Assembly (NCBI GenBank): GCA_021513715.1
Contig: CP084167.1
Coordinates: 2,656,001 to 2,720,000, forward strand
DNA length: 64,000 bases
Direction of reading: 5' to 3'
From: Candidatus Heimdallarchaeum endolithica
GTDB taxonomy: Archaea; Asgardarchaeota; Heimdallarchaeia; Heimdallarchaeales; Heimdallarchaeaceae
Shown here: positions 44,491-63,644 of the stretch, piece by piece
How the letters are laid out: each line of letters starts with the position of its first letter
Numbering within the stretch: the first letter of the stretch is position 1
The notes under the pieces: generated by a model
Databases searched by the model: none
What the model saw: only the letters and a program-made list of their open reading frames with translations
What the model was told of the DNA's origin: nothing
Position numbers and translations under genes: made by a program

Positions 44491-44970
44491 TATATTTCAC
44501 CGATTATTGATTAGTTATACTTGAAAGCTCACTAGGATTCAAAAAATAGTTGAAACTTATTTAATGGATTCTAAAATTGAACTACAAATATACTAAGTAA
44601 ATGAAATATATCGAGTATTTAAATTCTAGGTTTGAACTCAAGAAATAATTGTTAGATTTTAAATTATTAATTAAGTTAGATTTCAATTTAAAAATACTCA
44701 CACTATTGGTGCTAGCTGTTTATTCTTTTGCTTTGGAACTTCATAAATTTGGATTTTTTGATTTTTCAAATAGCTGTAAGTTTTCATAAAAAAATAGAAT
44801 TTGGTTCTGTTATTGTTCTTGAACAGCTGAATAATTATTCTAAATTTCTCGTGTTTTTTGTGAAAAAAACAAATATTATAAAAAAACAACTTTTTCTACA
44901 ATTTTCTTTTTTTTTCAAAATCTATTTAAGTGAAAATACCTTCTTTCTTTTAGTACCATCGGTGAGTATA

Positions 44971-45215
44971 GTGGATAATCCTGATTCTTCAATTATAATT
45001 GATAAGATTAAAGAAGAAATAAATAATTACGAATCTTCGAGAGCTAGAGGAAAAAAACTTGTTTTTGAGAAATCTACTTCTGAGCTTTTAAATGGTTTAG
45101 AACAGTTTCTAGATGATTTTTTGACAAATATTCTAAAACAGAAGAAGTAGAAGAAATTGACAAATTTGTTGAACACCTCTATTCTTCATTAGGGTGGAAA
45201 AGAAATGATTACTAA
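44971..45215 (+). CDS. Small acidic helical protein (~81 aa after adding one T at 45117-45122; 59 aa as sequenced), first gene of the SMC-PIN operon
   Basis: GTG start behind GGTGAG RBS, TATTTAAG upstream. Corrected frame ..LEQFLDDFFDKYSKTEEVEEIDKFVEHLYSSLGWKRNDY overlaps the ATPase start codon. Confidence 0.6.
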
Positions 45216-47031
45216 TGTAAGTGTAAAAAATTGGAAAAAATTTGATCAGCAAAAGGAATGGTCTTTTGATAAAGGAATCCAGCTTATTTATGGGCCAAAT
45301 ACAAGTGGAAAATCTTCACTTCTTGAAGCTATTTATTTTGCCTTTTTCGGAGTAGATGAGAAAGTTGATGGAAATCCAACTTATAATTCAAATGAGGCTG
45401 CTATCGTGACAGTAGATTTCATTTCAAATACTGGTGAAAAATATAGAATAATCAGAAGTTATAAAAAAATAAAAAGAAAAGAAGAATCTTTTACACTTTA
45501 CAAATTGGTAGATGGAAATGAAGAATTTTTCTCTGATAATCCTCAAGATGCGATAAAAATATATGGAAACTTTGAAGATATCTTTACACATATAATTTTC
45601 CTGAAAGAGGGCGAAATATATCGAGCTCTATCAAGAATGAAAAGCAATTTAGATGAAGAATTAGCATATTTGTTAAACTTGCAACGATTTGATGTTCTTC
45701 GTGATAAATTAAGAGAAACAAGACTTAAAGTTATTAAAAAAGAAAAAGAAAATGTAAAAAAAGACCCGACTTTTCTATCTGAAAAAGAAATAAATGAACT
45801 TAACGATAAATTGAATGATTTAAATGAAGTTAAAAAGAAGCTAGAAGAAGAAAAATCGAAGTTTATAGACAATAGGCAAACAGCGCAGAAAAAATATTCA
45901 TTAACTAAAAAACTGAGAGATCTTGATTCTCAAAAACAAAAATATGGTGAAACAATAAAGACTATTAGAAACAAGTATGAAAATAAAGAATCTTTAATTG
46001 AGTTTTTGGATAATGAGATTGAATCATTAGAAAATAAATATAGACAGCTAGAACTAGAGTATAGTAAACTAAGTAGTGAAAAGGCAGAAAAAGAAGGAGA
46101 AAAGAGAAGACTAAATAAGCTTATTATTGAAATCAAGTCTTTTAAGTCCTCTGGAACTACTACATGTCCTACTTGTTATCAAAAAGTTGACCCCTTAATT
46201 CTTCAAGAAGCTATGGAAAGTTTTAGCAAGAAAGTTACAAAGTTAGAAAATGCTTTGTCCCAACTTAATTATTCTATTGATACGGTTAATGAAGAAAAAA
46301 GAAATATCTCTCAAAAAATAAAGGAAATTAAAGAAGACTTATTTGAGCTCAAAAATGCAAAAGCAAGAATAAGTGATGTCCAAGAAGAAATGAATGAAAT
46401 AAGTGAAAATCTTAACTCTCTCCCCCATACTGAGGATATTCAATATTATTCAAAACAAATACAAGAACTAGAACAAAAAATAAGTGAAACTAATGTAGAA
46501 ATAGGAACAATAGAGAAAAAATTAAGTTCAAGTAAGCAAGAAGGGGTTTTTATTGATGAACTAGAGTTTCAGGAAAAATTCATAGAACTTGTTGAAAATA
46601 AAATAGCAGAGTATAAAGATGAGTTGTTAGAAAGAAAATTGGATGAAATTAAAAGTGTGATAAAAGAAAAATGGTCAGAAATATGGGATAAAGAAATATG
46701 GTCTATTGAATTTGACGAAAATTTAATTCCTACAATTAGCTTTAAGTTTAAAGGAACAACTATTCAACAGAATTTACGCAGTTTTTCAGCAAGCGAAAAA
46801 ATACTCCTGAGTGTCATTTTACGAGCTGCACTAATTGATAAATTCTTAAGCGTGAAAACGATGATTCTTGATGATCCCTCAATCTTTCTTGATCAAGAGA
46901 GTGTTAAAATTGCTGCTAGATTCTACCGTGAACTAATAGATAAAAAAAGTGTTGAACAGATAATTATGACTACATTTGATGAATCATTCAAAGAGTTGTT
47001 AAAACCCGAAAAAGTGATAAATCTTGAATGA
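45205..47031 (+). CDS. Short Rad50/SbcC/SMC-like coiled-coil ATPase with zinc hook
   Basis: Walker A GPNTSGKSS, central CPTC hook between coiled coils, signature FSASE, Walker B/D-loop ILDDP..FLD. Confidence 0.9.
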   Translation: MITNVSVKNWKKFDQQKEWSFDKGIQLIYGPNTSGKSSLLEAIYFAFFGVDEKVDGNPTYNSNEAAIVTVDFISNTGEKYRIIRSYKKIKRKEESFTLYKLVDGNEEFFSDNPQDAIKIYGNFEDIFTHIIFLKEGEIYRALSRMKSNLDEELAYLLNLQRFDVLRDKLRETRLKVIKKEKENVKKDPTFLSEKEINELNDKLNDLNEVKKKLEEEKSKFIDNRQTAQKKYSLTKKLRDLDSQKQKYGETIKTIRNKYENKESLIEFLDNEIESLENKYRQLELEYSKLSSEKAEKEGEKRRLNKLIIEIKSFKSSGTTTCPTCYQKVDPLILQEAMESFSKKVTKLENALSQLNYSIDTVNEEKRNISQKIKEIKEDLFELKNAKARISDVQEEMNEISENLNSLPHTEDIQYYSKQIQELEQKISETNVEIGTIEKKLSSSKQEGVFIDELEFQEKFIELVENKIAEYKDELLERKLDEIKSVIKEKWSEIWDKEIWSIEFDENLIPTISFKFKGTTIQQNLRSFSASEKILLSVILRAALIDKFLSVKTMILDDPSIFLDQESVKIAARFYRELIDKKSVEQIIMTTFDESFKELLKPEKVINLE

Positions 47032-48627
47032 AACTAAATTTTTGTTTGTTTTTGATACTTCTTTTTTTTGTCTCTCTTAAATGTTAATCGCCATCAATTG
47101 ATACAAGATATCAAAGAAGTATTTGACTTTGTTCCAAACATTGAATATATTGCTCCAAAAATAATTCTAAAAGAGCTTTCGGGAAAATATAAAGACAAGT
47201 GTCCTTTTCTAGAGCAACATATTCAATTTACAGATGTAAAAATTACAGAAGAAGAGATAAAAGAACTTAAATCATTAAATTACTCTTTAGCGAATCATGC
47301 GTTTGAGAGAGATGAAAAGGGTGATTACCTCATAATTAAATCAGCACAAAAGCATAACAACTCAGAAGTAGTCACATTCATTGTAAGTAATGATGAAGGT
47401 ATTCATTTGTTTCTCAATCAAGCTATTCCAGAAGAGAAAATAAAGCCAATCTGGGTTGCAAGATTTTTATCTTTTTTAGCTAAACAATCTCCAACTAAAC
47501 CTCAAAAACAAAGGTTTATTCGAGCTTCTGAAATGCTAGAAGAGTATATTGAAACTTATCGTATAAAGGCTAAGCGAGGAGAAACACCTTTTTATGATAT
47601 GGAAAAGATACTCATGTCAGCTAAATTTTTACCAGCTGAAGAGCAAGTTGTTCAGTTGCAAGAATCTCTAGAGAATCAAATAATCACAGGAGAAAAAAAT
47701 AAAACTCTTCCTTCATTTATTAATCAAATAGGTTCAAAACTACATCAAATTTTTACATATATTGATTTAGGTGAAACAAATGTTATCGAAGCTCAACTCG
47801 AGTCTGTAGAAAATATAATCAAAAATCTAAATTTCGAGCAACAAGAGACAATTTACAAAATTATTAGTTTTTATATGATTGCTATTCTAAATCGATTAGC
47901 TTCATTATATGACCAAAATGGAGCTTTTTCTGGTATTGTTTCCGCATTGGAAAGAGCAAAATACTATTTGAAATATGTAGAAGAATTTGAGGATAAGAGT
48001 CAACTCTACGCAATTTTAAGTTGGATACATTTATTAAATAATTCAGTTGATTTGTCTCAATATTACTTCTCAAAAGTAACAGATAAGAACTTTGAACTAG
48101 CAAGAAAGTTAATTGCATTATTAGAGCTTTATGGCACTCCACTAGCAAAAATTAATTTAGAATTGTATGAATTACTTCCATCTGAAATTTGGAAGGATCT
48201 CAATGAAACGCTTGCTATATGCCCAAATAAGTTATTACGAGATAAAATAGCTCATATAGTTAATACCTTTGAAATAAAGCCCTCTTTTGTTTTCGATGCA
48301 AGACATTTTAGTCTGAAAAATGTAAGTGTGAAAGAAAACTATTTACTTTCTTTTCTAAAAGAGCAGTTTAGAATACTAAATATAAGAAAAAAAGAGAGTT
48401 CAATAGTGATTGAGTGTTATAACAGTAAAATTGGTCAAATTGAACTCCGTTTACCAGTTATGACAAAAATGCTTAAAGCATCACATGGTGATTTAATTAG
48501 TTTTCAAGGTGGAATAGTAGCAAAAATCAACAAACCTGGCCCAGGAAAAAAACATTCTGCAACAATATATTTCAGTAAATTAGAAGAAAAGGATCATAGT
48601 GTCTCAAAGGATAGTAAGTTAATTTAA
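47024..48627 (+). CDS. PIN-domain nuclease + helical repeat + beta-rich C-terminal domain (needs one extra T at 47062-47069)
   Basis: TTG 47024 overlaps the ATPase stop and gives MNETKFLFVFDTSFF, joining the ORF at 47068 (LSLLNV..). PIN acidic motifs DTS, KEL, GDYLII, VSNDEG. Homologous to 63039-63644. Confidence 0.75.
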
Positions 48628-48742
48628 TATTTTTCCAATCACTTAATTTATGTAATGCAAAAAAATATCCAGACATAGAAAACAGCACTCGGATTTGCAA
48701 TTATTTAAAGTATGTTTATATAGTCTCTTTAAATGAACACGT

Positions 48743-49093
48743 GTGGACAATATTGTAACTGGGCTGTATGTTGGTAAAAAAGACCCCGTTTTTACTGAAA
48801 CAAGTTCCTTTCAACCTAAAAATGTTGTAATCATTAGAGTAAAAATAGTTGATTCTAGTGGAAATGCTGTTGAAGGTGCATCAGTAACCATAACAATTAC
48901 TAACCCTAATGGAGATATAGTGACTCTAACCTCAACAACTGACAATCAAGGAATAGCAGAGTTTTCTTATAGGTTAAATCCAAAAACTCCACTAGGAATT
49001 TACACTATTAATGTGACAGATGTGAGTCTAACTGGGTATACTTATGATCCAAATGCTAATGTAGTTTCAACACTTGATTTTAATGTAAATTAA
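48743..49093 (+). CDS. Ig-like beta-sandwich domain, probably a fragment of a larger surface protein
   Basis: VDSSGNAVEGASVTITITNPNG..TTDNQGIAEF..GIYTINVT; no signal peptide. Confidence 0.6.
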   Translation: MDNIVTGLYVGKKDPVFTETSSFQPKNVVIIRVKIVDSSGNAVEGASVTITITNPNGDIVTLTSTTDNQGIAEFSYRLNPKTPLGIYTINVTDVSLTGYTYDPNANVVSTLDFNVN

Positions 49094-49808
49094 AATATAC
49101 AACCCTTTATTTTTTTCTTTCTTTTTAAAATGATAGAGCAAAATATTTAGATTACAAAATTAAAGAAATTTTATGGTTTCAATTACATTTTATGGTGCAA
49201 TCAATGAAATAGGAGGAAATAAAATACTTCTAGAAGGAGAAGAAACTAGAGTTTTTTTGGATTTTGGCTTGTGTTTTAATCGATATGGTAATTATTTTTC
49301 TCCTTATATTACTCCGCGTCAAGGACTAAAATTAAAGGATTTTATTGAGTTGAGCCTTTTACCTGATCTCGAGGGTTTATATTGACAAGATTTTGAACAG
49401 CGCTTTCGAGAGAGTGCTAAAGAGCCATTGTTCGATGGAATCGTTCTCTCACATTCACACATTGATCATGCAGGATTTATTCCATTTATACGTTCTGATA
49501 TACCTTTCTATGCTTCTGAAGGTTCATTGGCTATATTGAAGGCAATGGAACAAACTAGTTACGGATTCTACGAATTTTTAGAACTTAAAGAGAAATTCAA
49601 AATAAGAGAAAGTAAAAGAGAGAAAGGTAAATATATACGAGATAGAGATTCAAGTATTCGAAGAGAAATAGTTTCTTTAAAATCAGATTTTAAAATAGGT
49701 GAGTTTAGTTTTCATTTCTTCCCCATAGACCATTCAATTGTTGGAGCAACGGCTTATGTTATTGAAACTCAAGAAGGCTCAATAGTTTATACTGGAGATA
49801 TACGTTTT

Positions 49809-51657
49809 CATGATTTACTTTTTGTGAAGTTTGTCGAACTTAGTCTTTCAAGAAAAAAACAAAGATAGATAATTGTTAGTTTCTTGAGAACTTAATCCTA
49901 ACATACAATGAAAGAAGAAGGATTAAGACAGACGTCATACACGAATCGGGGGAATCATAAAGAAGAAAAGAACTTTTTCTTTCTTTTCTTCACTCCACGA
50001 GAGACAAAAAAGAAAAAACTAAACCCTTGAATATAAGAGTGAATAATTCTTTTTGTCTACTGGGACTGCAACCAATGGCTGAGTCCTCGGCAAACAGTAT
50101 AATGCGTAAGACTAAACTTTTGACCAGTAAAGTAATCAGTAATAGTTGTAACACGGGGACGAAAAAGATGACTAAGGAATTTACGAGCAATATTTCTAGC
50201 TCCTGTTAAATCAGAGTGGTAAGTATAGTTACAAAAGGGACAGTGTATTAATCCTCTGACGGGACGAGAAACTTCTTTTCCACAACGGGAACAATGAGAA
50301 GATGTTCCTCTTTCGTCTATTATAAGAATACGATGAGGAGCAAAACCTCTTAATATCAATGCTCGACGGAGAAGAGAAAGAACTAAAGAAAAATTCCACT
50401 GGTGAAGTTTTCTACGAAAATAACGAGTACTTTTACCTTTCCCTTTTTCTTTTCCTTTTCTAACATTTTTGGGGTAACCTACGACGACGAAAAGGTCATA
50501 CATTTGAGCATAGGTCCCTATCGTCCGCACAACGTCGTTTATAAATTGGTGAATATAGGACTGTTTAACGTTTCTATATCTCCGACGAAGATATCCAAGA
50601 AAACGATAAATTTGGTGTTTTTTACCCGACTGGTCATTTAAAGCCGCTTTCCTCTGAAGACGGGAAAACTTGAGTTTATATCTGTGATTGATTCTATTCC
50701 ACTGTTTGGTATACCAGAATTTTATCTCTTTGCTTGTTAACTTCTTTTTGGGAGTTAGTAACACTCCTACAGCAGGAATGTTTATCCCTAGATCTATCCC
50801 CAGCACAGCTGGGGGAAGAGAAGAAGAATTATTAACTGAATAAGAAAAAGAAGAAGGAGGAAGAACTTCTAATTGAAAATACACCCACCACTCACTTGTA
50901 GAACGTTTATATCTTAATTCCAGGCTTTTCACTTGTCCTTTTTTCAATTCTTTTTGATGGAAAGTGCTCATCTCTAAAGGTAACCACAATCGTTGATGAT
51001 ACCTTGTTTTTCTTTTCCACGTGTCTAATGAGTCTCTTATTCCTACCCACCAACGAGAAATAGAGTTGTTTTTCTCTTTTGGTAAATTAGTAAGAATAAA
51101 CCTATTCTTATTGATTAGTTGTTTTCGGGGTCTCTTTTTTGGAGGACGAGTGGCTTCAGGTCTATATCCTTGCTCGTACAGTTGTACTGCTATATCTCTA
51201 CACTCTTGAAACTCATCATGAGAACAGTAAGGGAACATCTTTTTAAGGTCATGAGGAACAGTCTCTCTTCGCTCTTCTACTTTTTTTAGCCTTGATGTTG
51301 TCAATGTTAGTTCATCTAGTTTTCCTCTATGTACTCTTATTTCTCCTTTCTTTGTTTTCATACACAGTCTTCTTCTGTTGTGATGTATAATTTTTACATA
51401 TTTTCTATTATCCTTGTGTCTCTCCCTGTTATTCTCCTTAATCTTTCCTTTTTTCTCCTCGTCAAAACTTCATTTTTTATTTTTACTTTCAAAGTTTTGA
51501 CTATCTTCTCCATCTTTTTTCCTCTTCTTTTCCTTTTTTTCTTTTTCTTCTCTTCATTTATTTCTACTATTTTTTCTTATAAAAAGTCTCTTTTTTTTCT
51601 TTTTCATCCATACTCTCTATCCTAATGTTCGCAAAATTACGCAAAAAGTAAATCATG
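49809..51657 (-). mobile_element. tnpB-only insertion element with terminal inverted repeats, CATG at both junctions
   Basis: Ends CATGATTTACTTTTTG and CAAAAAGTAAATCATG are a perfect 16-bp inverted repeat, extending imperfectly to about 35 bp; splits host codons H|G. Confidence 0.92.
50057..51513 (-). CDS. tnpB: TnpB with rearranged RuvC-II glutamate; N-terminus separated by a -1 frameshift at 51401-51404
   Basis: GIDLG, VVVGYP, IDERGTSSHCSRCG..CPFC..HSDLTGARNI. Upstream ATG 51513 gives MEKIVKTLKVKIKNE.., which joins the 434 aa ORF if one A is added (~485 aa). Confidence 0.85.
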
Positions 51658-61874: not shown

Positions 61875-63644
61875 ATGAAAAACTCTCCGAAAACTAAAAA
61901 TGAATTTATACGTAATTGTGCTGAATTATGGTATAAAAAAAGAGATATTAAAGAGTTAATGACACTTTTTCGCAGCACTTTTGGAAAAAACAATCCCTTC
62001 TTTCTTCTACAGGTAGGTTCGAGTGTATTTAAAAAATATGGGTATGAAATTTGGGTTATATTTTTGTCAGATTTGTTTAATTTCAACAAAAGATTCAGGA
62101 AAGTTATTCAAGGAAGGATAGATAGAACTTTTTTCAATTTAGTTACAGGGTGGAAAGGGAGTGGAAAAAAACATATTATAACATCATCTAAAGAACTTGA
62201 TGAAAAGATCTCTTTTCTTGTTGAAAAAACATCATTACAAAAACCAAATTTTGATAGGATTTATTTTTTCTTAACAGAACAGATAAAAGACCGGGCAATT
62301 TTACCAGAAGAATGGGTGAGAATAAAAAATACATTAATTTATATTCCAGAGAGCGTAGAAACTTATTATTACCTTAAAACAGTTATGTATAAAACATTAG
62401 GTTGTAAGAACTACAAAAAAATAAATATTCAAACAAATATAGGTAGATTCATCAATTATAGAAAACTTAGGCGGAGATTATTTATCTTTTTATTACAAAA
62501 TAGAGATTATAAATTGCAAAAATATTTTCTCAAATTACCTCTTTTTTTAAGAAATAATGAAAAGGAAAAAGTCATTTTAGCAATTTCAATATTAAGTTAT
62601 TTATTTTCTAAAAATTATAAGAATAATGATATAATAACTAAGTATCTTCTTGAAAATGCAAAGATAGGAGCTAAAAAATTAAAAAATCAACATTTCCTAT
62701 GCCAGATAGTTAGAGATCTTTATATTGAAGAATTTTACATTTATATGAAAAACAAGGAATTTACTGAAGCTGTTAAGATTCTTAACTATATAGAAAAAAA
62801 AGAATTAACAAAAGGAAATAAAAAATCTAAAAATAGAATTAACATTTTTCTAGTTGAAGGATATTTGGAACTTACAATTCAATTTTTAAAGCTTGGTATA
62901 TATGGACGGGCACAAAGAACATACGAAATGGCAAGTAATATTTTTAAAAATATCACAAAAAATAAAATTTCCAATCTTAAGGATCTTGAACAATTATTTG
63001 TCTCTTTAAACCAGCAATTTCAAAAAATCGAAACTGAAATGATATTTATTTTAGACACTTCTTTTTTGTGTAGTGTCTTAGACTTTGTTCATCAAAGAAA
63101 AGACGAATTCGAAAAAATTTTTGAAGTAATAAATTCCTATGAGCAGATTGATTATAAAATACCAACTTATGTTTGGGAAGAAATTCCTGTTCGATATAAG
63201 TTTTGGTCTCCTTTACTTCCAAATACAACATCTTTTACTGACTATGAGATACCAGATGAAAGAATAAATGATTTGAAGTTCTTAAATGAAATAAGGCGAA
63301 AAAAGTTTTTTACTGATGACGAAATTTTTGATTATAAAATTATACAAACAGCCCTAGATTATAAAACGGATAGAATTACTTCAATAATTGTTTCTAATGA
63401 TGAAGGAATACATTCCTTTGTTAGTAAGGCTTTACAAGAACCCAATGTGAGATCAATATGGTCTCATACATTTCTCTTATTTCTAGCTAGAAATGGAAAA
63501 AATGAAAAAATAATAAAAATATTAGAAAAAGTTGCTGACGGTGTCGAGAAACTAATTAATGAATATCGAACTAAAGAGAAAAGAAAAAAACTATTGATAC
63601 AACCATTCGACAAAACTTTGATCTCTGTTAAATTAGAAAAATAG
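61875..63644 (+). CDS. Helical/TPR-like protein with C-terminal PIN domain
   Basis: FILDTSFL, VWEEI, FDYKII, IVSNDEGIH at 63039-63644, alignable with the N-terminus of the 47024 protein. Confidence 0.75.
   Translation: MKNSPKTKNEFIRNCAELWYKKRDIKELMTLFRSTFGKNNPFFLLQVGSSVFKKYGYEIWVIFLSDLFNFNKRFRKVIQGRIDRTFFNLVTGWKGSGKKHIITSSKELDEKISFLVEKTSLQKPNFDRIYFFLTEQIKDRAILPEEWVRIKNTLIYIPESVETYYYLKTVMYKTLGCKNYKKINIQTNIGRFINYRKLRRRLFIFLLQNRDYKLQKYFLKLPLFLRNNEKEKVILAISILSYLFSKNYKNNDIITKYLLENAKIGAKKLKNQHFLCQIVRDLYIEEFYIYMKNKEFTEAVKILNYIEKKELTKGNKKSKNRINIFLVEGYLELTIQFLKLGIYGRAQRTYEMASNIFKNITKNKISNLKDLEQLFVSLNQQFQKIETEMIFILDTSFLCSVLDFVHQRKDEFEKIFEVINSYEQIDYKIPTYVWEEIPVRYKFWSPLLPNTTSFTDYEIPDERINDLKFLNEIRRKKFFTDDEIFDYKIIQTALDYKTDRITSIIVSNDEGIHSFVSKALQEPNVRSIWSHTFLLFLARNGKNEKIIKILEKVADGVEKLINEYRTKEKRKKLLIQPFDKTLISVKLEK

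What the first reader, a model, noticed from the sequence alone, without database searches (positions are those of the whole stretch)
44921..48627. Candidate undescribed defence system: small acidic protein + short Rad50/SMC ATPase + PIN nuclease effector
Seen: three translationally coupled genes (each start overlaps the previous stop once single-T corrections are made) behind one TATA-like box and RBS. They encode an ~81 aa acidic helical protein, a 608 aa zinc-hook coiled-coil ATPase, and an ~533 aa protein with an N-terminal PIN domain, a helical middle and a beta-rich C-terminus. No Mre11/SbcD, HerA or NurA gene is adjacent. Established: repair Rad50 is longer and pairs with Mre11; Lamassu (LmuA effector, LmuB SMC, small LmuC) and RloC couple Rad50-like sensors to toxic effectors; PIN domains are mostly RNases. 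Inference: a Lamassu-like Asgard system in which the SMC senses DNA ends or foreign DNA and releases a PIN RNase, with the small protein as adaptor or a Mre11 helix-loop-helix mimic. It lies in a variable region with gene fragments and IS insertions.
Basis: partly seen in the sequence, partly recalled or inferred. Interest (0 to 1): 0.88.

Follow-up and report, generated by a model that had tools for sequence, protein, structure and literature searches.

The report
Asgard Rad50-like ATPase with PIN nuclease
A three-gene cassette found only in Asgard (Heimdall) archaea joins a tiny clamp protein, a shortened and catalytically altered Rad50-type ATPase and a PIN-TPR-OB nuclease; it is built like the bacterial Lamassu anti-virus system without being a demonstrable member of it, its function is untested, and the copy in this window carries two frameshifts.

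Summary
The three overlapping genes are real: a small helical protein (44971-45215), a 608-aa zinc-hook Rad50-like ATPase (45205-47031) and a 534-aa PIN/TPR-like/OB protein (47024-48627). Intact copies (81/608/534 aa) occur in related Heimdallarchaeaceae. More divergent triads occur in other Asgard lineages, including one with an 889-aa ATPase. The window copy has two 1-nt deletions, one in the small gene and one in gene 3. Gene 3 starts at TTG 47024 and needs one correction, not two.

The PIN fold and its acidic quartet are confirmed. A complex model places the small protein on the root of the ATPase coiled coil, where Mre11 docks on Rad50 (score 0.74, best control 0.01).

The PADLOC 'LmuB' hit (117 bits) is not specific: ordinary Mre11-linked Rad50s score 124-170 bits on the same profile. 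No LmuA or LmuC profile matches. A canonical Mre11-Rad50 pair lies elsewhere in the genome.

Best reading (about 0.55): a Lamassu-like conflict module derived from Mre11-Rad50. Its defence role is inferred, and support from gene neighbourhoods is modest.

This scan has already reported the same cassette in other Asgard genomes. I found no description of it in the literature I could search. Classed as a new variant of a known kind.

The parts
44921..44970 (+). Upstream region with an A/T-rich TATA-like element (TATTTAAG, 44923-44930) and GGTGA (44961-44965) before the GTG start
   Evidence: Read directly from the sequence. No archaeal promoter tool was available, and the sigma-70 scan is not relevant to archaea.
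44971..45215 (+). Gene 1: small helical protein, 81 aa when read through. It is broken here by a 1-nt deletion near 45116, next to a T6 run.
   Evidence: Intact 81/81/77-aa homologs P0004-P0006. Indel mapped. Second frame read. Alignment A3 has an invariant Trp near the C-terminus. Folded alone it is three helices at low confidence, pLDDT 57.
45205..47031 (+). Gene 2: 608-aa Rad50-family zinc-hook ATPase, intact
   Evidence: Pfam SMC_N, AAA_23 and AAA_29. The profile's best matches among solved structures are archaeal Rad50 heads, E 4e-40. Motifs.
45292..45318 (+). Walker A (GPNTSGKSS), canonical
45676..45732 (+). ATPase residues 158-176: outgoing coiled-coil root, modelled docking site of the small protein
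   Evidence: Complex model
46165..46176 (+). Zinc hook CPTC (C321-C324), invariant in the family
46555..46626 (+). ATPase residues 451-474: returning coiled-coil root, second half of the modelled docking site
46858..46875 (+). Deviant Walker B (TMILDD; Asp in place of the catalytic Glu)
   Evidence: The Q-loop Gln is Glu and the H-loop His is Phe/Tyr in every triad ATPase.
47024..48627 (+). Gene 3: PIN / TPR-like / OB protein, 534 aa when read through. TTG start; broken here by a missing G after the T8 run at about 47070.
   Evidence: Homologs P0001 (94% identity) and P0002 (83%) are intact.
47030..47502 (+). PIN domain (residues about 3-160) with acidic residues D11, E51, D101, D124
   Evidence: VIA-align: 1y82 Z 11.2 (rmsd 3.4, 139 aligned), VapC15 Z 10.4, HARP RNase P Z 10.3. 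Conservation in A1. Pfam PIN_4 is above the gathering score in homolog P0009.
47635..48273 (+). Helical TPR-like repeat region (residues about 205-417)
   Evidence: Foldseek and VIA hits to TPR proteins, Z about 8, which is weak for helical repeats
48280..48615 (+). C-terminal OB-fold-like beta domain (residues about 420-531)
   Evidence: Foldseek hits to Stn1, RPA32, HIN-200 and Teb1 OB domains at probability 1.0 but E about 0.01-0.04. VIA: 8tc8 Z 7.5, p204 HIN Z 7.2, Rpa1 Z 7.2. Moderate support.

Best explanation
This is a self-contained three-protein module derived from the archaeal Mre11-Rad50 machine, and it works on the Lamassu principle.

The Rad50-like ATPase dimerises through its zinc hook. 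It has lost three hydrolysis-promoting residues (Q-loop Gln to Glu, Walker B Glu to Asp, H-loop His to Phe/Tyr), so it probably acts as a slow ATP-binding switch that recognises DNA ends or other abnormal or foreign DNA structures. The 81-aa protein clamps the root of the coiled coil, in the place of the Rad50-binding domain of Mre11, and acts as an adaptor. The third protein carries an apparently active PIN nuclease. Its TPR-like and OB domains hold it on the ATPase/adaptor and bind nucleic acid. On sensing, the nuclease would be released or activated and would cut RNA or DNA, which stops a virus or plasmid, possibly at the cost of the cell.

Shown: the gene cassette and its conservation, the folds, the motif changes, and a separate canonical Mre11-Rad50 pair in the same genome. 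Modelled: small protein bound to the ATPase. Inferred: the trigger, the nuclease substrate, binding of gene 3 to the complex, and the defence role.

The copy in this window has a frameshift in gene 1 and another in gene 3. Whether these are real inactivating mutations or residual long-read errors is open.
For: - Cassette conservation: intact small + ATPase + PIN triads occur in L001, L002 and L007 (same order and overlaps). Divergent triads (gene 3 only 23-43% identical) occur in L003, L004, L006, L011, L013, L055 and L057, in different neighbourhoods.
- Patchy spread: full-length gene 3 is found in 2/2 genomes of the genus, but in only 6/30 of the family, and in 3/3 and 5/6 genomes of two other Asgard genera.
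- PIN fold Z 11.2, with D11/E51/D101/D124 conserved.
- The small protein docks on ATPase residues 158-176 and 451-474. Score 0.74, best of 3 controls 0.01. That mark was reached by 58 of 80 solved complexes and 2 of 110 mismatched pairs. Runs agree in at least 87% of contacts; partner pLDDT at least 78. A like complex (Mre11 Rad50-binding domain on Rad50) is solved, so the pass shows likeness to it.
- The nearest relatives of the ATPase outside the family are archaeal Rad50s encoded directly after Mre11, the position the small gene occupies here.
- Motif changes are shared by the whole family and absent from canonical Rad50s. A deviant Walker B is also a Lamassu trait (PMC12663957; 10.1101/2025.06.23.660979).
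- A canonical Mre11 (426 aa) and Rad50 (710 aa) pair lies elsewhere in the same genome.
- In one clade the triad lies next to a type II methyltransferase (E 2e-85 and 1e-96) and an AriA/NsnB-like ATPase.
- The PIN module recurs in other protein architectures, including a second gene in this window.
Against: - There is no experimental evidence of any kind.
- Neither partner protein matches any PADLOC model.
- The LmuB profile hit is non-specific.
- Around this window's copy, and in most other loci, the neighbours are housekeeping or unknown genes rather than defence genes.
- No relative was found on viral contigs.
- Within the genus the cassette sits at a fixed, syntenic place.
- Binding of gene 3 to the ATPase was not modelled.
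- The gene order (small, ATPase, effector) differs from the usual LmuA-LmuC-LmuB order.
Confidence: 0.55

Rival explanations
1. A housekeeping or stress-related DNA-end-processing complex. In this reading a Rad50 paralog has had the Mre11 phosphoesterase replaced by a PIN-family nuclease, whose OB domain binds single-stranded DNA. It would be used for repair, replication-fork processing or recombination, not for immunity.
For: - The ATPase is closest to repair Rad50s.
- The small protein is modelled at the Mre11 docking site.
- OB-like domains resemble RPA, Stn1 and HIN DNA binders.
- The cassette sits among housekeeping genes at a syntenic place in the genus.
- It is present in nearly all sampled genomes of two genera: 3/3 and 5/6.
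Against: - The genome already has a canonical Mre11-Rad50 pair.
- The cassette is absent from most of the family (24 of 30 genomes, though many are incomplete).
- Loss of three hydrolysis residues is unusual for a processive repair motor.
- One genome keeps gene 3 alone and one contig keeps the small gene plus ATPase alone.
- The window copy may be broken with no obvious cost.
Confidence: 0.25
2. A true, very divergent member of the Lamassu family by descent, with LmuB, LmuC and LmuA orthologs beyond sequence recognition, rather than an independent derivation from archaeal Mre11-Rad50.
For: - The best PADLOC family for the ATPase is LmuB, over its full length.
- Walker B hhhhDD and a single CxxC are the pattern reported for long LmuB (PMC12663957).
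- Long LmuC is proposed there to derive from the SbcD C-terminal domain and lies just before LmuB, as the small gene does here.
- Long LmuA C-terminal domains are described as helices plus a beta-sheet.
- Both short and long ATPase forms exist.
Against: - Canonical Rad50s score higher than the triad ATPase on the same LmuB profile.
- No LmuA or LmuC profile matches even at E 10.
- No Lamassu chain appears among the best 60 solved sequences for the ATPase profile, nor among the fold hits of gene 3.
- The backbone of my tree is unresolved and contained no LmuB references.
Confidence: 0.1
3. The two frameshifts in this window are real, so this genome's copy is a decaying, non-functional cassette. 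The alternative is that they are residual homopolymer errors of a long-read assembly.
For: - Across about 15 kb aligned to L001, the only uncompensated coding indels are the two in this cassette.
- The adjacent gene has a 2-kb deletion and a TnpB insertion lies nearby, so the locus is eroding.
Against: - Both indels sit beside T6 and T8 runs, the typical site of nanopore errors.
- The genome appears to be a single-contig Heimdallarchaeum of the kind assembled with Canu from nanopore reads (PMC8813620). That identification is my inference from size and kinship.
- The rest of the three genes shows no stops or other damage.
Confidence: 0.45
4. A chromosome-organising or RNA-processing complex of the archaea-specific SMC-related (ASRP/coalescin) kind, with no role in conflict.
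For: The best NCBIfam model is ASRP (106 bits, near full length). ASRPs are about 600-aa zinc-hook proteins and are reported from Heimdallarchaeota (PMC9389158).
Against: - The score is far below the ASRP cut-off of 300 bits.
- Profile searches find Rad50s, not ASRPs, as the nearest relatives.
- I know of no ASRP described with a PIN partner.
- The distribution is patchy.
Confidence: 0.07

Closest known systems
Lamassu (LmuA-LmuC-LmuB; DdmABC; ABC-3C), especially the 'long' type
   Same: - Three parts: a zinc-hook SMC/Rad50-like ATPase with a deviant Walker B, a small protein encoded just before it, and a large protein with an N-terminal effector domain and a non-catalytic C-terminal region.
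- A proposed origin from an SbcCD / Mre11-Rad50 operon, with the small protein descending from the ATPase-binding tail of the nuclease (PMC12663957).
- Both short and long coiled-coil forms.
   Different: - The partners match no LmuA or LmuC profile.
- PIN is not among the reported Lamassu effectors (Cap4, Mrr, protease, Sir2, FMO, HNH, SMEK, lipase).
- The C-terminal region is TPR-like plus OB.
- The gene order is small, ATPase, effector.
- The small protein is only about 70-90 aa.
- The ATPase is nearer to archaeal Rad50 than to solved LmuBs.
- The cassette is restricted to Asgard archaea, whereas the published archaeal Lamassu systems were in Euryarchaeota and Thaumarchaeota.
Archaeal Mre11-Rad50
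   Same: The ATPase head sequence, the CxxC hook and the operon position of the upstream partner. The small protein is modelled on the coiled-coil root, where the Rad50-binding domain of Mre11 sits.
   Different: - No phosphoesterase domain anywhere in the cassette.
- Q-loop, Walker B and H-loop residues are replaced.
- The coiled coil is shortened (608 aa against 710-1000 aa).
- A PIN protein follows instead of HerA or NurA partners.
- The canonical pair is present elsewhere in the genome.
RloC and other ABC/SMC-ATPase-plus-nuclease conflict systems (Gabija, PARIS, Septu)
   Same: They also couple an ABC-type ATPase sensor to a nuclease effector.
   Different: RloC fuses the anticodon nuclease to the ATPase in one chain. 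The others use OLD/AAA_15-type ATPases without a zinc-hook coiled coil. No sequence relationship to the partners here was found.
VapC-type and other PIN-domain nucleases (Nmd4, Dis3 PIN, HARP RNase P)
   Same: The fold and the four acidic residues of the N-terminal domain of gene 3.
   Different: Here the PIN domain is fused to about 370 residues of TPR-like and OB domains and is encoded after a Rad50-like ATPase. There is no VapB-like antitoxin.

Membership tests
Lamassu | LmuB: an SMC/Rad50-like coiled-coil ATPase recognised specifically by LmuB profiles | tested here: inconclusive
   PDLC03859 gives E 2.8e-34 and 117 bits over the full length. The same profile gives 170, 148, 155 and 124 bits to canonical, Mre11-linked or named Rad50s, and 56-90 bits to other SMC-like genes of this genome. 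No LmuB reference sequences were available for a tree.
Lamassu | LmuA: an effector protein with the conserved LmuA C-terminal domain | tested here: not met
   No PADLOC LmuA model matches the window protein or homologs P0001 and P0003 even at E 10. The layout (N-terminal effector plus a non-catalytic C-terminal region) is analogous only.
Lamassu | LmuC: a small protein encoded directly upstream of LmuB | tested here: inconclusive
   The position is met. No LmuC profile matches. It is much shorter than described LmuCs. A model places it on the coiled-coil root, whereas short LmuC sits in the core between the heads (PMC12663957).
Lamassu | Deviant Walker B in the ATPase | tested here: met
   hhhhDD in most triad ATPases; DE is kept in one clade. 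hhhhDD is reported for long LmuB.
Lamassu | Anti-phage or anti-plasmid activity, with release of the effector on sensing DNA ends | not testable with these tools
   Needs experiments.
Mre11-Rad50 repair complex | An Mre11/SbcD phosphoesterase partner encoded with the ATPase | tested here: not met
   There is no Metallophos domain in the cassette. Metallophos and Rad50 genes lie together elsewhere, at genome positions 473.4-476.8 kb.
Mre11-Rad50 repair complex | Canonical Q-loop Gln, Walker B Glu and H-loop His | tested here: not met
   These are E, D and F in the window protein. Five canonical Rad50s in the same alignment keep Q, DE and H.
PIN domain nucleases | PIN fold with four conserved acidic residues | tested here: met
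   Z 11.2, 10.4 and 10.3 to PIN structures over residues 3-160. D11, E51, D101 and D124 are invariant or nearly so. Pfam PIN_4 scores 25.5 bits (cut-off 21.9) in homolog P0009, but is below the cut-off or absent for the window's own protein.
ASRP (archaea-specific SMC-related proteins) | A score above the NCBIfam NF045487 cut-off | tested here: not met
   106 bits against a cut-off of 300.

The most novel reading that the evidence does not exclude
Asgard archaea independently re-invented the Lamassu principle from their own Mre11-Rad50 operon. Mre11 was cut down to an ~80-aa clamp that still grips the Rad50 coiled-coil root. The ATPase was turned into a slow switch by three active-site changes. 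A PIN-TPR-OB nuclease was recruited as effector. The result would be an Asgard-specific immune system with no homologous partner in bacteria.
Probability: 0.4. Interest if true: 0.8.

Novelty: new variant of a known kind. Interest (0 to 1): 0.6.

Why it matters
If the module is a defence system, it would add a nuclease class (PIN) and a new partner set to the SMC/Rad50-based immune systems. It would also extend them to Asgard archaea, the closest prokaryotic relatives of eukaryotes, where published surveys report almost no Lamassu. It would be a second case of a DNA-repair machine turned into an immune sensor, alongside bacterial Lamassu (proposed to derive from SbcCD), and one that may be independent of it. 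The ~80-aa clamp would be a minimal natural Rad50-binding module that could be studied structurally.

A practical point: the PADLOC LmuB profile PDLC03859 scores ordinary Rad50s higher than this ATPase. Automated 'LmuB' calls in archaea therefore need checking.

Tried and rejected
- Sequence link between the small protein and Mre11: hhalign of the small-protein alignment against three Mre11 proteins gave nothing (probability below 1%). Descent from Mre11 rests only on gene position and the modelled docking site.
- The small protein folded alone gave a low-confidence three-helix model (pLDDT 57), so it was not used for fold searching.
- Pfam, NCBIfam and PADLOC gave no family for the small protein. 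For gene 3 they gave only sub-threshold PIN_4 hits.
- tblastn of the ATPase against plasmids gave one irrelevant partial hit. I therefore could not obtain LmuB reference sequences.
- The tree of ATPase heads (quick method) groups the triad ATPases together with P0030 and P0036 (SH-aLRT 89, below the 95 star). Its backbone is unresolved, so it cannot say whether the clade arose within archaeal Rad50.
- A scan of viral contigs found no relative of gene 3.
- A 92%-identical metagenome contig (L060) has an intact small gene but comes from another strain, so it does not settle whether the window's frameshifts are real.
- ESM Atlas look-alikes (~630-aa hypothetical proteins of Thermoplasmatota; feature score 0.93, TM about 0.3) could not be followed up.
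- The sigma-70 promoter and terminator scan does not apply to archaea.
- Reading gene 3 from ATG 47028 with two T insertions was rejected in favour of TTG 47024 with one missing G, on comparison with intact homologs.


Full report
WHAT IS THERE

Window 44921-48627 holds three co-directional genes in a 26-30% G+C region.

Gene 1 starts at GTG 44971, with GGTGA six bases upstream. In its first frame it stops at TAG 45148-45150. The conserved C-terminal part (…KYSKTEEVEEIDKFVEHLYSSLGWKRNDY) continues in the -1 frame to TAA 45213-45215.

Gene 2 (ATG 45205 to TGA 47031) is an intact 608-aa ATPase. It overlaps gene 1 by 11 nt.

Alignment with a 94%-identical intact locus (L001) shows otherwise. The start is TTG 47024, an 8-nt overlap with gene 2. 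The first 15 codons read (M)NETKFLFVFDTSFF (the start codon is printed as L). A single G is then missing after the T8 run at about 47070. The restored products are 81, 608 and 534 aa.

Over about 15 kb of window DNA aligned to L001, these two deletions are the only uncompensated coding indels. Both lie beside long T runs. The genome is a single 3.33-Mb contig. It belongs to the same genus as Ca. Heimdallarchaeum aukensis PM71, whose sister genome was assembled from nanopore reads with Canu (PMC8813620). I therefore cannot decide between real decay and residual sequencing error.

CONSERVATION

Gene 3 has very few relatives. A search of 1.84 billion representative proteins returned 15 hits. A word-indexed search of 5.8 billion returned 3.

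Every full-length relative whose contig was long enough sits in the same triad:
- L001, L002 and L007 (H. aukensis) have 81/608/534 aa and the same overlaps.
- L003 has 77/622/557 aa in a different neighbourhood.
- L004, L006, L011 and L013 carry triads.
- L055, from another Asgard order, has 79/620/572 aa.
- L057 has 70 aa, an 889-aa ATPase and a PIN protein of at least 565 aa, which is a long-coiled-coil form.

There are partial forms too. One contig has only the small gene plus the ATPase (L039). One closed genome has gene 3 alone, with no ATPase within 8 kb.

Among 400 Asgard genomes, full-length gene 3 is present in 2/2 genomes of the genus and 6/30 of the family (2/25 in its largest genus). 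It is present in 3/3 and 5/6 genomes of two other genera. Many of these genomes are incomplete, so absences are soft. All named hosts are Heimdallarchaeota or unclassified archaea. None was found on viral contigs.

THE THREE PROTEINS

Gene 3. An AlphaFold2 model of P0001, built on a 17-row alignment, has mean pLDDT 88.6.
- Residues 3-160 are a PIN fold. An exhaustive structural search gave 1y82 Z 11.2 (rmsd 3.4, 139 aligned), VapC15 Z 10.4 and Aquifex HARP RNase P Z 10.3, followed by more VapCs, Nmd4 and the Dis3 PIN domain.
- D11, E51, D101 and D124 are invariant or nearly so across relatives down to 17% identity. Their spacing is that of VapC-type active sites.
- Pfam PIN_4 passes its gathering score in homolog P0009 only.
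- Residues about 205-417 resemble TPR repeats (Z about 8, weak for helical repeats).
- Residues about 420-531 resemble OB folds: Stn1, RPA32, HIN-200 and the N-domain of AsnRS.
- The PIN module alone recurs in other architectures (P0012-P0015). One of them is a 589-aa protein in this same window at 61875-63644.

The ATPase. It has a canonical Walker A, a single invariant CPTC hook and an SMC-type signature.
- Every triad ATPase has Glu for the Q-loop Gln and Phe/Tyr for the H-loop His.
- Most have Asp for the Walker B Glu; one clade keeps DE.
- Five canonical Rad50s in the same alignment keep Q, DE and H.
- This points to slowed hydrolysis, which is an inference from established ABC-ATPase mechanism.

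The small protein. It is helical and has no family match. An invariant Trp lies near its C-terminus.

IS THE ATPASE AN LmuB?

PADLOC's best model is LmuB PDLC03859 (117 bits, full length). I ran a control. The same model gives 170 and 148 bits to two short Rad50s encoded directly after Mre11. It gives 155 and 124 bits to the Methanocaldococcus and Methanobrevibacter Rad50s, and 56-90 bits to three other SMC-like genes of this genome. The hit therefore shows Rad50 likeness, not Lamassu membership.

Other searches point the same way:
- NCBIfam's best model is ASRP, at 106 bits against a cut-off of 300.
- Among solved structures, the family profile is closest to archaeal Rad50 heads (E 4e-40). 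No Lamassu chain is among the best 60.
- In the 5.8-billion-protein search, the next relatives outside the family are archaeal Rad50s.
- A quick tree joins the triad ATPases, P0030 and P0036 (SH-aLRT 89), but its backbone is unresolved and it holds no LmuB references.

The genome has its own canonical Mre11 (426 aa) and Rad50 (710 aa) pair elsewhere.

THE SMALL PROTEIN AS A CLAMP

A complex prediction of the small protein with the ATPase supports binding but does not show it. The score was 0.74 and the best of 3 controls was 0.01. That mark was reached by 58 of 80 solved complexes and 2 of 110 mismatched pairs. The runs agree in at least 87% of contacts and the partner's pLDDT is at least 78. 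These counts hold only roughly, because my own alignments were used.

The contacts fall on ATPase residues 158-176 and 451-474. These are the two helices at the root of the coiled coil, where (established knowledge) the Rad50-binding domain of Mre11 sits. Because Mre11-Rad50 complexes are solved, the pass may reflect that likeness. It shows that the pair looks like Mre11 tail on Rad50, not that this copy binds.

Short Rad50s have Mre11 in exactly the upstream position that the small gene occupies here. Together this fits a scenario in which Mre11 was reduced to its clamp. It parallels the published proposal that LmuC descends from the C-terminal domain of SbcD (PMC12663957). Direct sequence comparison with three Mre11s found nothing.

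FUNCTION

Lamassu complexes hold a monomeric effector inactive on an LmuB dimer and release it on sensing DNA ends. LmuB has naturally deviant Walker B motifs (PMC12663957; 10.1101/2025.06.23.660979). The cassette here has the same three-part logic, so the same kind of mechanism is the best guess.

Evidence for a conflict role is indirect:
- patchy distribution and varied neighbourhoods;
- loss of individual parts in some genomes;
- a modular PIN domain that recurs in other proteins;
- possible decay of the window copy;
- in one clade, an adjacent type II methyltransferase (E 2e-85 and 1e-96 in two related genomes) and an AriA/NsnB-like ATPase.

Most other neighbours have no defence match. The window copy lies among housekeeping genes.

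A repair role, with a PIN nuclease in place of Mre11, remains a serious rival.

NOVELTY

PIN is not among the Lamassu effectors listed in the most complete survey I could read. That survey found archaeal Lamassu only in Euryarchaeota and Thaumarchaeota. Literature searches found no description of this cassette.

Earlier notes of this scan describe the same cassette in other Asgard genomes, with similar conclusions. My tests agree with them. They add the Rad50 control for the LmuB profile, the modelled docking site, the long form, the distribution counts and the corrected frames.

Noticed in passing
window 61875-63644 (+): A 589-aa ORF whose C-terminal ~200 residues are homologous to the PIN domain of gene 3 (profile E 1e-46, query positions 3-203; like P0012). 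Its N-terminal ~380 residues have no Pfam or PADLOC match. It is a second carrier of the same nuclease module, 13 kb downstream.
   Followed up: partly
window 48742-49812, compared with L001 9721-12792: About 2 kb of the 780-aa LTD/Big_7/Exo_endo_phos gene that follows the cassette in sister genomes is deleted here. Only its 3' end remains (ORF 48743-49093).
   Followed up: partly
window 49812-51653: An insertion absent from L001 and L002. It contains the 434-aa minus-strand ORF 50057-51361, which earlier notes of this scan describe as a TnpB element.
   Followed up: no
PADLOC model PDLC03859 (LmuB): This profile scores canonical, Mre11-linked archaeal Rad50s at 124-170 bits and matched all 14 control genomes. 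It can produce false 'LmuB' calls.
   Followed up: yes
own genome, L032 (G000 2765710-2767548) and L033 (G000 2469172-2470584): Two further SMC-like ATPases. One is 798 aa and stands alone beside a DDE transposase. The other is 627 aa and lies directly after gyrA. Both match the ASRP model weakly (41 and 63 bits).
   Followed up: partly
L054 (G116, closed genome): A gene 3 homolog (P0022, 581 aa) stands alone with no Rad50-like ATPase within 8 kb. A 78-residue duplicate of its C-terminal part lies nearby.
   Followed up: partly
The genome search, family f5 / genus g14 and family f20 / genus g53: Proteins of about 600-675 aa carry only the PIN-like N-terminal ~200 residues of gene 3. They occur in 17/22 genomes of one Asgard genus and in several genomes of another. 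Their context was not examined.
   Followed up: no
ESM Atlas: The nearest feature-space look-alikes of gene 3 are clusters of ~630-aa hypothetical proteins from Thermoplasmatota (score 0.93; structural TM only about 0.3). They may be a related family outside Asgard.
   Followed up: no
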